DNA of 63,999 nt, the filler included, from Reclinomonas americana ATCC 50394 (lineage: Eukaryota), in NCBI GenBank assembly GCA_048213135.1. It is 12 parts of 12 records of this genome, joined end to end, with 100 filler letters (N's around TTAATTAATTAA, not from the genome) between each part and the next. Parts side by side here need not be neighbours in the genome. Positions count along the whole stretch, not along the records: positions 1 to 9,341 come from AFZH01021924.1; 11 more parts are not named here. One strand, 5' to 3'. The translations under genes and the position numbers were made by a program. Shown piece by piece: positions 3,493 through 8,363 of the stretch. The notes below the pieces were generated by a model, which saw only the letters and a list, made by a program, of their open reading frames with translations, was not told the DNA's origin and did no database searches. The first letter of the stretch is position 1. The number at the start of each line of letters is the position of its first letter.

Positions 3493-6400
3493 TCACCGGC
3501 GACGTCGAGCATTCCTGACATTCCGCCTCCGTTCCTTTTCGACAGCAATCTCACGAATAACTGACTCCACGCGCTGTGCTGTTGGATGACTGTCGCCGAA
3601 CACCTCACGAACCAACATCAGCAACTCTTGGCACAGTTGCTCGGACTCGGTGAGATTACCGCTGTCATTGATGCACATGGCGAGAATTTCCATCGACACC
3701 AGCGTGTCTGGATGTCTGTCGCCAAGCACCTCACGCCTTCGTGCGAACACCTCTCGGTACAGTTCCTCGGCTTCGGGAAGATTAACATTGCCACTCCCCT
3801 GGATGCAGATACCAAGACTGACCATAGACGCCAGTGTGTCGGGATGCCTGTCACCAAGCACCTCACGCCTCAACACCAACACCTCCCGATACAGTTCCTC
3901 GGCTTCTGGAAGATTGCCACTCTCCTCGATAACGCTTGCTAGACGATCTATCGACGCCAGAGTATCTGGATGCCTGTCCCCAGGTACCTCACGCTGCAAC
4001 CCCAACACCTCACGATACAGTCGCTCGGCTTCTGCGAGATTGCCTCTGTCCTTGAAGCACATGGCGAGATTGTTCATGGACGTCAGCGTGTCTGGATGTC
4101 TGTCACCAAGCACCTCACGTCTCAACACCAACAGCTCTCGATACAGTTCCTCGGCTTCCGATATCTTGCCGCGGTCACGAATGCAGCTTGCCAGAAGATC
4201 CATCGACTCCAGTGTATCTGGATGATTGTCACCAAGCACCTCGCGCCTCAACGCCGACACCCTCCACAACAGCCGTTCGGCTCTGGCGAGTTTGCCGCTG
4301 TCCTTGACGTAGATAGCGAGATTATTCATGGACTCAAGCGTGTCAGGATGTTTACGACCAAGCGCCACACGACTTAACGCCACAAAACCTCGGTACGCTC
4401 GCTCGGCTTCCACGAGATTGCCCCTGTTGTGAATACAGATCATGAGATTGGCCACGACATTCAGTGTGTCCGGATGCCAGTCGCCGAGCACCTCACGCCT
4501 CAACTCCAATACCTGCCAATACAATCGTTCAGCGTCGGCAAGATGGCCGCTCTCCTGGATGCACTTAGCAAGATTGTACATGGGAACCAGCGTGTCAGGA
4601 TACTTGTCACCAAACACTTCACGCATCAGCATGAACACCTCCCGATATAGTTGCTCTGCCTCGGAGAGATTACCGCTTGCCTCGAGGCAAGCGGCAAGAT
4701 TGTTCACAGACTTTATCGTGTCTGGATGTTTGTCACCAAGCACCTCTCGCCTCAACGTCAGCACCTCTCGATGCAGTCGCTCGGCTTCGAAGATGTTGCC
4801 ATTCGCCTGAATGCAGCAGGCAAGACAGTTCATACACCCCAGCGTCTCTGGATGCCTTTCGCCGAGCACCTCACTCATCAACGCCAACACCTCCCGATGC
4901 AGTCGCTCGGCTTTGGCGATATTGCCGCTTGCCTGCAGGCAGACGGCGAGAGAGTTCATGAACGTCAGCGTGTATGGATGTCCGTCACCAAGCACTTCAG
5001 GAATCAATTCCGACGCCTCCCGATACAGTCGCTCGGCTTCGGAGAGATTACCGCTGCCCTTGATGCAGTTGGCAAGACTGTTCATGGACGACAACGTGTC
5101 TGGATGCCTGTCGCCGAGCACCTGACGCCTCAACGTCCACACCTCACGATACAGTAGCTCGGCGTCGGCAAAACGGCCAACACACTTCAAGCAACCCGCA
5201 AGTAGGTGCCAACACTCTGTAACCGTCTTCATATCGTCCCCTGCTTCAAACGTCCTCAGATGTTCAACAAGGTAGTCTGCAGCATCACCAACACGACGCG
5301 CACTTCTAAGCAACGCTGCCACGCACAAAGCGCTTTCGTGGAAGATATCTCGGGCCAATCCGCCATCACTCATTTCACGAAGCCATGCAGCACTCGCCAC
5401 TGCCACATCAGCGTTGAAATCATGGACAGGAAGACGATACTCCACCAACCATGCAAAGTAAGACAAGCCATCTAAACACATCAGCTTCACTGGTCGCGTG
5501 CCCCCATTCCACTGGCGCTGCAGTGTCGCTACCAACTCGTTCCACATCACTTGCAGACACGGACGAATGTCGTGCAGCATACCATCACTGACGCTGTGGT
5601 CATCAGCCCAAGCAAGTCCACAAAGAACAATATTTGACACCGCATCGCAATACTGAGACAGCTCACTCCCACGTTCTCCCGAGGTCAACCACTCCATCAC
5701 GATGTCGTGCACTCCATACTCCACTCTCGATGGCGACACAACGGAACCTTCTTCGCCATTCATAACCATTCGATACACGGCGTCGCATGACTGAGTCATC
5801 GTGGACCGCACCAACATCGACCGTCGAAGTGATTCCAGAGCCTGCACCACATCGCCGTCTTCTTCACCGCACTCGTCAACTCTCCCTTGAGTCGCAAGTT
5901 GTTGTAACCAATCTTGAGATGCTGGATTCGACTCACGTCCCATCAACTGAACCATTAACGTCACAGTCCGAGCCGTGACATGCACTCGCATCTGCTGCAG
6001 TGCCGCGACCAGTAGCAGCACCTGCCGCATGAGTGGCGTGCACTCTGACAAGTTCTTGCTCATCAGCTCATCCAACGCCAGTTCTCGGGTCTCGGCCAGG
6101 AGTGCCTGCAGCGCACTGCTTGCCAGCGTCTCCAACGACTGTCGTGCAAGCATGCTGCATGCACCACACTCTTGAGTTTATGATCTTCAACGACAGTAAG
6201 ATGCACACAGCGATCGACAAACCTCAAACACAGAGCCACACGGAACGCCTGTGGTCTCTCCACTGTCGCCTCGGTCACCTCACAGCAGATCTCCTCCGGT
6301 GCGTCAATCTGCTGTCGCACGTACTGCGCCACATCGTCGGCCTCTACATCGCCAACAGACACATGAATCACCAAAGCAGAGCTCAACAAGGCTGAGCGTT

Positions 6401-8004
6401 GCAATTCGTCGGCCACTCGCTTGAACCGCGTTGTCACAATCACAAGCGGGGAGACCAGAAGCGGGGAACCTGCGTGTGGGAAGGAGACACATGAGTTGGC
6501 TACTAACCTCTAAAGCGAGATTCTGCATAAAAGCAAACGTACATGCGACGATACATGCAACGAGGACTTGTTGCAGCAAAGAAGCACGGGAAACAACTCA
6601 CGAGGACACAAGGAGTGCCACACAAGGCTCACTGACGAACACACTCCAGTTCATACCTGCACTGACGCGTCCACGGACGCTCACGCCTCGCAATACATCC
6701 AACACTTGCTTCCCCATGCCGACATTGTCAAGCAACAGAATGCCGCGGCTGTCCTTCATGAAGTGCGCTAGTCGATTGCGCATCATGTCCACATTGCCAT
6801 CCTTCTCCCATGCCTCGATCTCCGCCAACAACTGGGCGTTGGATTGCACAGATGTAATGGCGCTGGCGAATCCTCGAAGCGCACTGCAGAGTACGTCCGT
6901 CGTCTGCGTAGAACCAACAGAGATTGCGTCAGCAACGACATGCACTAATGCATAGACTTCATCCTCTTCCACTCACCGATGTGAACTGGCTCTCATCAGC
7001 CATGTGACCACGCATGTCCGAGTAAAGTGCCGATCCACGCCACTTCTTGCGCTCCATCTCCGAAACAATCAACTCAGCCAGTGTTGTCTTGCCACTCCCA
7101 CCCTCACCAGAAAGCACAATAACTCCGGGCTTCTCATCTACGAGTAAGATCCACGCAGGAGAGAAAGTAAGCAACACTACTGGATACCAGCAAAGACAAT
7201 AGCACTGTCACTTGTGACCTCACCAGCCTCGCACTCAAGCCACCGCTCTGCAAGGCGCTCGGCCTCCGCGACGCGACTGGGGAACGGGAATTCATCCAAC
7301 TGGCCTACATTGTTGCACATGATGGCGCGGCCCACTGGCGCCACAGCTGGCATCCGAAACACACCACACGAGTCAGTGTGAACACAAACAAAAAAAAACG
7401 CAGACCACGTGACACACCGAAACGGATGGCATCAATTTCGGCGACAAACGAGTCCACGTCTGGGACCTGCGCCTGTCTCAGTAGATACACCACTTTTCCT
7501 TCTCCGGCGTCATCTCCAAGTAGGTCACGCAGGTGTGCGGCTGAGAGTCGCAAGGTCGGGTTATGCATGAGGCCATTCCTCGCGTCGCGCAATTTCTGCA
7601 CGGCATCGCGCTGCACAAGACACTTCCTAGTGAACACGCAGAGAATAATGCAGTGCACGAGATCAGAAAAAGCCATGCCTGCGACTCGTCAGCGATAAGC
7701 TGGCGCACATCAGGCGGCGCGGCGCTCGCATCCGGCGTCCAACGTGCATTGCAAAGCACCGAAGCCATCCACGTGATGTCAAACGCACTGCACGAGGGTG
7801 CAGGGTCGCCCGCGTCCAGCGCATGCTGCCAGTGTTCCATATCCTCAGGGCCATAGCACAACACTTGCTGTTTCCCAGGCAAGGTGCTGCAAAAAGCACA
7901 CACGTGGATCAGCGCAGACTGACACACTCATCGAGATGAACGTGTGAGACCATGAGATGATAGGCAAAATGCTGTTGATGACAGAAGAAGACAGAAGCGG
8001 AGAG

Positions 8005-8042
<38 letters not shown>

Positions 8043-8363
8043 ACAGTGGAGAGAAGTGTCTCACCGCTTGTCTTCGTTTTTCTCCGCGCTTCGGATTCTT
8101 CATCCACTCCTTCATCAACTCCAATTTCCCCGCTGGAGTCGCTTCAGTCTCGGCCGCACATGTGCGCACAAATGCCGGCAGTTCCCGTTGCACAAGAGCG
8201 CGCAAAGCACGAGCAGCGACACCACTCACGACTCGGGTGGCACGGATAAAGTTGGACCTGCGATATAAGGATTGCACACGTCAGACTTGTGACAACAAAA
8301 CACTCGACTCGCAACACACACGAGCTTTGGAAGCACTCACTCTTCGTCGGCGATGAGCGACAT
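3493..8363 (-). CDS. NLR-like STAND protein: N-terminal DUF4559/HEPN-like domain, P-loop NTPase, helical domain, 13 x 42-aa TPR repeats
   Basis: ATG at 8363 gives MSLIADEESNFIRATRVV. Motifs: FDITW..VL; RNGLMH (7563-7580); Walker A GEGGSGKT (7085-7108); Walker B ILLLDN (~6724-6741); sensor-1 VIVTTR; GxP-like ERPQAFRVA. The final exon 3493-6154 carries the VLGDRHPDTL repeats. GT-AG introns can be chosen that keep the frame throughout. Confidence 0.85.
3560..5220 (-). repeat. Coding tandem array of 126-bp units (kinesin-light-chain-type TPR, HPDT motif)
   Basis: 13 HPxT-type motifs spaced 42 aa apart. The nucleotide-level repeat is visible on + (ggatgcctgtcaccaagcacctcacgcctcaac). Confidence 0.92.

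What the first reader, a model, noticed from the sequence alone, without database searches (positions are those of the whole stretch)
3493..8363. Protist NLR-like receptor with a HEPN (DUF4559/CXorf38-like) effector: HEPN-STAND-TPR
Seen: the small ORFs at 6063-8277 splice into one gene with the 886-aa TPR ORF. The N-terminus (NFIRA..ALRALVQRELPAF..FDITW..AVQKLRDARNGLMHNPTLRLS) carries an intact R-N-x-x-x-H motif. Walker A, Walker B and sensor-1 motifs follow, then TPRs. Knowledge: RxxxxH is the catalytic signature of HEPN RNases, and effector-STAND-TPR is the layout of fungal NLRs and bacterial Avs antiviral proteins. From memory, the motif context resembles human CXorf38/DUF4559 (VIKCRNEIMHSSEMKVS). 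Inference: a ligand-activated, oligomerising RNase for antiviral or self/non-self defence in a unicellular eukaryote. It would also hint at a function for the uncharacterised DUF4559 family. Best candidate for an undescribed system.
Basis: partly seen in the sequence, partly recalled or inferred. Interest (0 to 1): 0.88.

Follow-up and report, generated by a model that had tools for sequence, protein, structure and literature searches.

The report
Eukaryotic HEPN-headed NLR-like TPR gene
This is most likely one intron-split eukaryotic gene for an immune-receptor-like protein with a probable RNA-cutting head, an ATP-binding switch and a repeat sensor, a layout already described by sequence analysis in animals and bacteria.

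Summary
On the minus strand, 8363-3493 can be read as one 9-exon, 1345-aa gene with 8 introns of 68-197 nt (7 GT-AG, 1 GC-AG). Every exon is richer in G+C than every intron. No RNA evidence could be obtained.

- **C-terminus:** 13 kinesin-light-chain-type TPR units (Pfam TPR_10 E=1.9e-112).
- **Middle:** a divergent P-loop NTPase with Walker A, Walker B and TTR. Only the Walker A exon reaches STAND-family profiles (nSTAND3, NB-ARC, NACHT).
- **N-terminus:** an RNxxxH motif. The HEPN reading rests on three weak, concordant leads. Exon 4's only Pfam hit is DUF4559/CXorf38 (E=0.016, below cut-off). The ESM Atlas places exons 3 and 4, separately, near DZIP3, DUF4559 and Swt1 HEPN clusters.

The whole N-domain could not be folded or profiled, because the tools take only contiguous translations.

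The claim of an undescribed system fails. CXorf38 was predicted to be a HEPN RNase in 2013. HEPN-NACHT-repeat proteins are catalogued in cnidarians, cephalochordates and bivalves, and HEPN-STAND-TPR proteins in bacteria. The taxon ("protist") is unverified. Verdict: a new, very divergent member of a known kind.

The parts
8341..8363 (-). Exon 1 with the proposed start codon (ATG 8363-8361), 23 nt, followed by a GTGAGT donor
   Evidence: The start is modelled, not shown; the next in-frame Met lies inside exon 2.
8065..8257 (-). Exon 2, aa 8-72: helical N-terminal part of the putative HEPN domain
   Evidence: The coding score is only marginally best in the model frame. No Pfam hit.
7679..7867 (-). 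Exon 3, aa 73-135: middle of the putative HEPN domain (FDITW segment, C-x7-H-x2-H-x10-C stretch)
   Evidence: Atlas neighbours are HEPN_DZIP3/DUF4559 clusters at 0.91, 0.90, 0.89 and 0.88, and HEPN_Swt1 at 0.87. All 10 of the 10 best named hits fall in one family or clan, but recognition is low at 1655. No Pfam hit.
7418..7610 (-). Exon 4, aa 136-199: carries the RNxxxH motif (RNGLMH, 7580-7563)
   Evidence: The only Pfam hit is DUF4559: E=0.016, 15.1 bits, cut-off 27, profile 146-199 of 305. Atlas neighbours are DUF4559 0.84, HEPN_DZIP3 0.82 and HEPN_Swt1 0.79.
7224..7346 (-). Exon 5, aa 200-240: linker and the segment leading into the P-loop strand
   Evidence: No family hit.
6977..7137 (-). 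Exon 6, aa 241-294: Walker A (GEGGSGKT, 7108-7085)
   Evidence: Pfam nSTAND3 7.9e-6 (26.1 bits, cut-off 27.2), NB-ARC 1.2e-4, NACHT 2.4e-4, AAA_16 and NPHP3_N, alongside generic P-loop families.
6657..6903 (-). Exon 7, aa 295-376: Walker B (ILLLD, 6741-6727, followed by N rather than a second acidic residue) and the chance RNRLAH
   Evidence: No family hit.
6223..6469 (-). Exon 8, aa 377-458: TTR sensor-1-like motif (6434-6426) and an RPQAF segment where AP-ATPases carry their GxP motif
   Evidence: No family hit. The likeness to a GxP motif is my inference.
5167..6154 (-). First about 329 aa of exon 9: all-helical linker with no detectable relative
   Evidence: For aa 1-310 there were 0 hits at E<=0.001 among 1.84 billion representatives, none in the word-indexed search and none in metagenome contigs. 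AF2 pLDDT was 49.
3493..5166 (-). Thirteen 42-aa TPR units (one spaced at 44) and the stop codon
   Evidence: TPR_10 1.9e-112 in 13 stretches and TPR_12 1.5e-100. Mean pairwise identity is 0.53 aa and 0.66 nt. The nearest solved structures are kinesin light chain TPRs, 2e-29.

Best explanation
One intron-split nuclear gene encodes a 1345-aa NLR-like protein. It has an N-terminal HEPN domain of the DZIP3/CXorf38 type (aa ~10-200, RNGLMH near the end of a predicted helix), then a divergent STAND-type P-loop NTPase (aa ~200-460), a helical linker and a 13-unit TPR array.

Inferred mechanism: the TPR array binds a ligand of foreign or danger origin. The NTPase then exchanges nucleotide and oligomerises. 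This brings the HEPN heads together so that two Rx4H motifs form a composite, metal-independent RNase site. That site cuts viral or host RNA and gives an antiviral or cell-suicide/dormancy response.

Shown here: the open spliced frame, the motifs, the TPR array and the P-loop. Inferred: HEPN fold and activity, STAND oligomerisation, ligand sensing and an immune role.
For: - **Gene model:** an in-frame 9-exon reading with consensus splice sites, plus exon/intron G+C contrast in 9 of 9 exons against 8 of 8 introns. The gaps between the HEPN exons and the NTPase exons are 71 and 86 nt, which leaves no room for a second promoter.
- **HEPN, Pfam:** exon 4's only Pfam hit among 24,736 models is DUF4559/CXorf38.
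- **HEPN, Atlas:** exons 3 and 4 share no residues, yet each lands next to DZIP3, DUF4559 and Swt1 HEPN clusters.
- **HEPN, motif context:** R is followed by N, the usual polar residue in HEPN (paper passages). A crude propensity scan predicts a helix at aa 128-144, ending two residues before R146, close to where the 2013 analysis places the motif.
- **STAND:** the top Pfam families for the Walker A exon are nSTAND3, NB-ARC and NACHT. Walker A, Walker B and TTR come in the right order and are followed by helices and repeats.
- **Precedent:** CXorf38 and DZIP3 HEPN domains fused to NACHT, TPR, LRR and Death domains are described in animals, and HEPN-STAND-TPR in bacteria.
Against: - No HEPN line reaches a curated threshold: DUF4559 scores 15.1 bits against a cut-off of 27, and E=0.016 is similar to clearly spurious hits on other exons (T2SSF 0.024).
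- No Pfam HEPN-named model (HEPN_DZIP3, HEPN_Swt1) matched exons 2-4 at E<=10, nor did any PADLOC or NCBIfam model.
- By the Atlas tool's own calibration, scores under 0.9 and recognition of 1655 are only leads.
- RNxxxH arises by chance in this DNA: 15 times in six frames, and once more inside this same protein.
- No exact E-x3-[KR] motif was found upstream of the Rx4H.
- NTPase exons 7 and 8 match no family. The Walker B aspartate is followed by N, so hydrolysis may be weak.
- No relatives were found at all, so conservation of the motif cannot be checked.
- There is no expression evidence.
Confidence: 0.58

Rival explanations
1. The gene is a STAND-TPR protein whose N-terminal helical domain is not an active HEPN RNase. 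The RNxxxH is coincidental or vestigial, and the head acts as an adaptor or oligomerisation module.
For: All HEPN evidence is sub-threshold. A second, clearly fortuitous RNxxxH lies in the NTPase. The motif's chance rate is 1.2e-4 per residue. There is no E-x3-[KR] motif.
Against: Two non-overlapping exons and two methods point to the same HEPN families. R, N and H are all intact. In oyster DZIP3-like HEPN proteins, 194 of 202 keep Rx4-6H (paper passage).
Confidence: 0.2
2. The model joins two transcription units, or the locus is not expressed as modelled. One possibility is a small HEPN-only gene ending by read-through into intron 4 (stop at 7305), plus a STAND-TPR gene starting at the Met in exon 5. 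Another is an unexpressed pseudogene.
For: No RNA evidence was obtained. Exon 4's frame stays open into intron 4 until 7305. Exon 5 contains an in-frame Met. Three introns have alternative in-frame junctions.
Against: The two units would overlap or lie within about 50 nt of each other. Intron 4 has intron-like G+C (0.48) and GT-AG ends. The 1345-aa frame has no stop or frameshift. The segment before the P-loop continues across intron 5 in the usual STAND manner (my inference).
Confidence: 0.1
3. The protein has a housekeeping or scaffold role like nephrocystin-3 or kinesin light chain relatives, not an immune role. The NTPase-TPR protein would organise cytoskeletal or ciliary complexes.
For: Pfam NPHP3_N and TPR_NPHP3 appear among the hits. 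The nearest solved TPRs are kinesin light chains. The neighbours are housekeeping genes, with no immune cluster and no paralogue in the window.
Against: The linker has no relatives among 1.84 billion proteins, which fits a fast-evolving conflict gene better than a conserved scaffold. The repeat units are similar to one another yet variable. A nuclease-type head is typical of immune STANDs.
Confidence: 0.1

Closest known systems
DZIP3/hRUL138-like HEPN (Pfam PF18738) proteins fused to NACHT and LRR/TPR/WD40 in bivalves and cnidarians
   Same: They share the N-terminal HEPN, central STAND NTPase and C-terminal repeat layout, with Rx4H and N after the R (paper passages). Atlas neighbours of exons 3 and 4 carry this family.
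   Different: No Pfam PF18738 hit was obtained on any exon. The NTPase here is nearer to nSTAND3/NB-ARC than to NACHT, and very divergent. The genome has compact introns and 55% G+C, and its taxon is unknown.
CXorf38 / DUF4559 (PF15112) HEPN family
   Same: It is the only Pfam family hit by the motif exon, and the hit lies in the profile region near the human RNEIMH at residue 162. The family is reported fused to NACHT and Death domains in cnidarians and cephalochordates.
   Different: The score is below the curated cut-off. The Zn ribbon reported inside the CXorf38 HEPN is not evident: exon 3 has only a single C-x7-H-x2-H-x10-C stretch.
Bacterial HEPN-STAND-TPR proteins (the Npun_F6454 group) and Avs-type antiviral STANDs
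   Same: The effector-STAND-TPR logic is the same, and the HEPN head is explicitly listed for bacteria. Earlier scan notes also describe such proteins.
   Different: No sequence relationship was detected: PADLOC and NCBIfam gave only generic P-loop hits. This gene is intron-rich and eukaryotic.
Fungal NLRs with NB-ARC or NACHT plus TPR_10 arrays (recalled; designs derived from Podospora NLR repeats appear among the PDB hits)
   Same: The repeats are the same 42-aa TPR_10/TPR_12 type in a long, internally similar array.
   Different: As far as I recall, a HEPN head is not among the usual fungal NLR N-domains. This was not checked here.
RNase L (ankyrin sensor, pseudokinase, KEN/HEPN RNase)
   Same: It works the same way: ligand-driven self-association switches on a HEPN-class RNase in antiviral defence. 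The KEN domain is classed as HEPN, and the mechanism is recalled.
   Different: The sensor and switch modules differ, and the KEN domain is a circular permutation at the C-terminus.

Membership tests
HEPN superfamily | Rx4-6H motif with a polar residue (N/D/H) after R | tested here: met
   RNGLMH at aa 146-151, 7580-7563. The criterion comes from paper passages. The motif's chance rate is 1.2e-4 per residue.
HEPN superfamily | Upstream conserved acidic residue, typically E-x3-[KR], in helix 2 | tested here: not met
   No E-x3-[KR] occurs in aa 1-205; only E-x2-K at aa 54 and 58. The paper says 'many' families carry it, not all.
HEPN superfamily | Four-helix up-down bundle with the motif at the end of helix 3 | not testable with these tools
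   The domain spans exons 2-4, and the folding tools take contiguous translations only. A crude propensity scan predicts a helix at aa 128-144, two residues before R146.
CXorf38/DUF4559 (PF15112) | Profile score above Pfam's gathering cut-off | tested here: inconclusive
   Exon 4 alone scores 15.1 bits against a cut-off of 27, E=0.016, and this is its only hit. Exons 2 and 3 gave no hit. The joined domain could not be scanned.
CXorf38/DUF4559 (PF15112) | Zn ribbon inserted in the HEPN domain (2013 description) | tested here: not met
   No paired CxxC is present; only C76, H84, H87 and C98 (criterion).
DZIP3-like HEPN (PF18738) | Profile match | tested here: inconclusive
   No hmmscan hit at E<=10 on single exons. 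Atlas neighbours carrying PF18738 score 0.91-0.82, which are leads only.
STAND NTPases (NB-ARC / NACHT / nSTAND3) | Walker A, Walker B and a sensor-1 arginine in order | tested here: met
   GEGGSGKT at aa 251, ILLLD at aa 349 and TTR at aa 389. The second acidic residue after Walker B is absent (D-N).
STAND NTPases (NB-ARC / NACHT / nSTAND3) | Profile score above the curated cut-off | tested here: inconclusive
   On the exact exon 6, nSTAND3 scores 26.1 against 27.2 and NB-ARC 21.9 against 23.5. NB-ARC reached 24.0 only on an ORF piece that includes translated intron. Exons 7 and 8 gave no hit.
STAND NTPases (NB-ARC / NACHT / nSTAND3) | Helical and winged-helix domains after the NTPase core | tested here: inconclusive
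   The AF2 single-sequence model of the 310-aa linker is all helical but has pLDDT 49, so it was not searched against fold libraries.
TPR_10/TPR_12 (kinesin-light-chain-type TPR) | Profile match well above cut-off, 42-aa periodicity | tested here: met
   TPR_10 scores 364.9 bits in 13 stretches. Spacing is 42 aa in 11 of 12 intervals.

The most novel reading that the evidence does not exclude
The genome belongs to a non-animal, unicellular eukaryote. This gene would then be an animal-type (DZIP3/CXorf38) HEPN head on an otherwise orphan STAND-TPR receptor. RNase-armed NLR-like receptors would therefore either predate animals or have been assembled independently in protists, on an NTPase and linker so divergent that nothing among 1.84 billion proteins resembles the linker.
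Probability: 0.35. Interest if true: 0.55.

Novelty: new member of a known kind. Interest (0 to 1): 0.35.

Why it matters
Eukaryotic HEPN-headed NLR-like proteins have been catalogued only by sequence analysis. In the papers I searched I saw no experiment on a eukaryotic one.

A single-copy example in a compact genome could serve as a model for two questions: whether STAND oligomerisation switches on a HEPN RNase in eukaryotes, and what CXorf38/DZIP3-type HEPN domains cleave. If the host is a protist, the gene would also bear on how old this receptor type is.

As it stands, it is one more divergent instance of a described architecture.

Tried and rejected
**Searches and jobs that gave nothing**
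- RNA evidence: no RNA holder was listed for 3493-8363. No reads were laid.
- Whole genome: none is held for this window, so paralogues could not be counted genome-wide. tblastn of the joined protein against the window found no second copy.
- Relatives, all blank:
  - exon 9 aa 1-310, word-indexed search, near lengths;
  - exon 4, longer lengths, 272 candidates;
  - exon 3, longer lengths, 95 candidates;
  - full HMMER scan of 1.84 billion representatives with exon 9 aa 1-310, 0 hits;
  - metagenome contigs, 121 pattern matches, none confirmed.
The NTPase exons were never searched in those libraries.
- PDB sequence searches were uninformative for exons 4, 8 and 6.
- PADLOC and NCBIfam gave only generic P-loop hits on exon 6.
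- Rfam found 0 families in the window.
- The AF2 model of the 310-aa linker had pLDDT 49 and was not used for fold search.
- Complex prediction with the exon 3 and exon 4 products as two chains returned no verdict (score 0.01, partner pLDDT under 50).
- Earlier scan notes: nothing for this genome, for look-alike stretches or for this sequence, and a six-word search returned nothing.

**Analysis that led nowhere**
- I tried to derive this organism's splice consensus from the signal-peptide-peptidase and aminotransferase genes. The script listed 145 and 184 possible junctions, so it was abandoned.

**Readings considered and rejected**
- Exon 9 alone as a bacterial-style TPR gene: rejected because the upstream exons supply the NTPase.
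- A second HEPN motif at aa 336: rejected because it lies in the helix before Walker B.
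Full report
**What is in the sequence**

The window is eukaryotic nuclear DNA of about 55% G+C. It carries intron-split housekeeping genes: Mon2, signal peptide peptidase, a class-III aminotransferase, tubulin-tyrosine ligase, ARID and a CNNM-like C-terminus.

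On the minus strand, an 886-aa ORF (3493-6153) is preceded by a chain of same-strand ORF pieces reaching 8277. I read the minus strand and joined the pieces by coordinates in a script. This gave one open frame of 1345 aa from ATG 8363 to the stop ending at 3493.

The model has nine exons and eight introns of 68-197 nt. Seven introns are GT-AG. Intron 3 is GC-AG, with a canonical GT donor 30 nt upstream that would remove 10 residues.

**Is the gene model more than wishful joining?**

Two checks do not use splice sites.
- All nine exons have G+C of 0.53-0.65, and all eight introns 0.46-0.49.
- With codon usage learned from exon 9 only, the model frame is the best forward frame in all eight small exons. 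Exon 2 wins only narrowly.

The gaps between the HEPN-type exons and the NTPase exons are 71 and 86 nt, too short for a separate promoter. The whole frame has no stop.

Against this, no RNA run was listed. Introns 2, 3 and 8 have in-frame alternatives affecting 7-24 residues. For intron 8, the 56 nt in question have exon-like G+C of 0.61. The observation therefore stands as an in-silico model.

**C-terminal sensor**

- Pfam gives TPR_10 at E=1.9e-112 in 13 stretches, and TPR_12 at 1.5e-100.
- The units are 42 aa long, with 11 of 12 spacings exactly 42. Mean pairwise identity is 0.53 in protein and 0.66 in DNA, up to 0.83.
- The nearest solved structures are kinesin light chain TPRs (2e-29) and designed repeats derived from Podospora proteins.

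**NTPase**

In the joined protein, Walker A (GEGGSGKT, aa 251), Walker B (ILLLD, aa 349) and TTR (aa 389) follow in order.

Only the Walker A exon matches profiles. nSTAND3 is best (7.9e-6, 26.1 bits against a cut-off of 27.2), followed by NB-ARC, NACHT, AAA_16 and NPHP3_N, mixed with generic P-loop families. NB-ARC passed its cut-off (24.0 against 23.5) only on an ORF piece that contains translated intron, so I do not count that hit. Exons 7 and 8 hit nothing in Pfam, PADLOC, NCBIfam or the PDB.

The Walker B aspartate is followed by N, not by a second acidic residue. STAND membership is therefore likely from motif order and architecture, but it is not proven.

The 310-aa linker that follows has no detectable relative:
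- 0 hits among 1.84 billion representatives;
- none in the word-indexed search;
- none in metagenome contigs.

Its single-sequence AF2 model is all helical but unreliable (pLDDT 49).

**N-terminal domain**

RNGLMH sits at aa 146-151 (7580-7563). Taken alone this is weak evidence. RNxxxH occurs 15 times in the six-frame translation of the window (1.2e-4 per residue). A second copy at aa 336 lies just before Walker B, where it is plainly fortuitous.

Three further lines converge on a HEPN reading.
- **Pfam.** Exon 4's only hit among 24,736 models is DUF4559/CXorf38: E=0.016, 15.1 bits, below the 27-bit cut-off, covering profile positions 146-199 of 305. A 2026 preprint (passages read) places the human CXorf38 motif RNEIMH at residue 162, in the same neighbourhood.
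- **Atlas, exon 4.** It lies next to DUF4559 (0.84), HEPN_DZIP3 (0.82) and HEPN_Swt1 (0.79) clusters.
- **Atlas, exon 3.** This exon shares no residue with exon 4. It lies next to HEPN_DZIP3/DUF4559 clusters at 0.91, 0.90, 0.89 and 0.88, and HEPN_Swt1 at 0.87. All ten best named hits fall in one family or clan.

By the Atlas tool's own calibration these are leads. Recognition for exon 3 is low (1655), and shuffled sequences reach 0.9 in 4-10% of cases. The same three HEPN families appearing for two separate exons, and by two methods, is hard to ascribe to chance.

It also supports splicing exon 3 to exon 4, since the two halves of one domain family lie in order. A crude helix-propensity scan predicts a helix at aa 128-144, ending two residues before R146. 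That is close to where the 2013 analysis places Rx4-6H.

Against the HEPN reading:
- there is no exact E-x3-[KR] motif;
- there is no Zn ribbon of the CXorf38 kind;
- no Pfam HEPN-named model (HEPN_DZIP3, HEPN_Swt1) and no PADLOC or NCBIfam model matched exons 2-4.

**Mechanism (inferred)**

I draw on RNase L and bacterial antiviral STANDs from memory, and on the composite dimer site modelled for CXorf38. By that analogy:
1. ligand binding by the TPR array releases the NTPase;
2. the NTPase oligomerises;
3. the clustered HEPN heads form an RNase site that cleaves RNA without metal.

The chemistry is summarised in the 2013 paper. None of these steps is shown here.

**Comparison with what is known**

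Anantharaman et al. 2013 (PMC3710099, passages read) already did the following:
- classed CXorf38 as an active HEPN family;
- reported its fusion to NACHT and Death domains in cnidarians and cephalochordates;
- listed DZIP3-type HEPN fused to TPR, NACHT and LRR, with expansions in Nematostella, oyster and the protist Capsaspora;
- listed bacterial HEPN-STAND-TPR proteins.

Takeuchi et al. 2022 (PMC9646362, passages read) count more than 50 pearl-oyster NACHT proteins with an N-terminal DZIP3-like HEPN and LRR, TPR or WD40 tails. In that genome, 194 of 202 HEPN domains keep Rx4-6H.

Kaur et al. 2021 (PMC8195603, passages read) add further animal HEPN fusions. Earlier notes of this scan describe prokaryotic HEPN-headed STAND-TPR proteins (not tested here).

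The layout and the predicted function of DUF4559 are therefore in print. My searches found no paper describing such a receptor in a unicellular eukaryote beyond the Capsaspora table entry. I saw only listings and passages, not supplements.

**Verdict**

This is a real, probably intact gene. It is best read as a very divergent member of the HEPN-STAND-repeat class of NLR-like proteins.
- 'Protist' is unverified.
- 'Undescribed system' is not supported.

Its value lies in being a compact, single-copy candidate for testing an untested mechanism.

Noticed in passing
window 9342-62996 (22 runs): Ns occur only as 22 runs of exactly 44, always in pairs separated by 12 bases (11 pairs). This may be a scaffolding or masking artefact. 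None lies inside the gene.
   Followed up: no
window 1690-3189, both strands: A long CT/GA-rich low-complexity tract just downstream of the gene gives spurious ORFs of 354-499 aa made of S/L repeats. A shorter CT run lies in intron 2 (about 8000-8040).
   Followed up: no
window 6780-6763 (aa 336-341): A second RNxxxH (RNRLAH) lies in the helix before Walker B. It is a useful in-gene control showing that the motif arises by chance.
   Followed up: yes
window 7858-7790 (aa 76-98, exon 3): A C-x7-H-x2-H-x10-C stretch lies in exon 3, upstream of the FDITW segment and the RNxxxH motif. CXorf38 is reported to carry a Zn ribbon inserted in its HEPN domain, so this could be a remnant of a metal site or chance.
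   Followed up: no
window 6729-6724: The Walker B aspartate is followed by Asn instead of a second acidic residue. The NTPase may bind nucleotide but hydrolyse it poorly.
   Followed up: no
window 5224-6153: The 310-aa helical linker between the NTPase and the TPR array has no hit at E<=0.001 among 1.84 billion protein representatives. It is an orphan segment inside an otherwise recognisable architecture.
   Followed up: partly
window 10200-10727 (-), 18033-20520 (+), 22083-23006 (-), 28870-29598 (+), 33899-34537 (-), 39806-41967 (-), 44144-44761 (-), 47660-48902 (-), 49421-54158 (+): The neighbours are ordinary intron-split eukaryotic genes: a CNNM-like C-terminus, MSP and RING, PUB, ARID, tubulin-tyrosine ligase, a class-III aminotransferase, a HAD hydrolase, signal peptide peptidase and Mon2. 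There is no other NLR-like or HEPN gene.
   Followed up: partly
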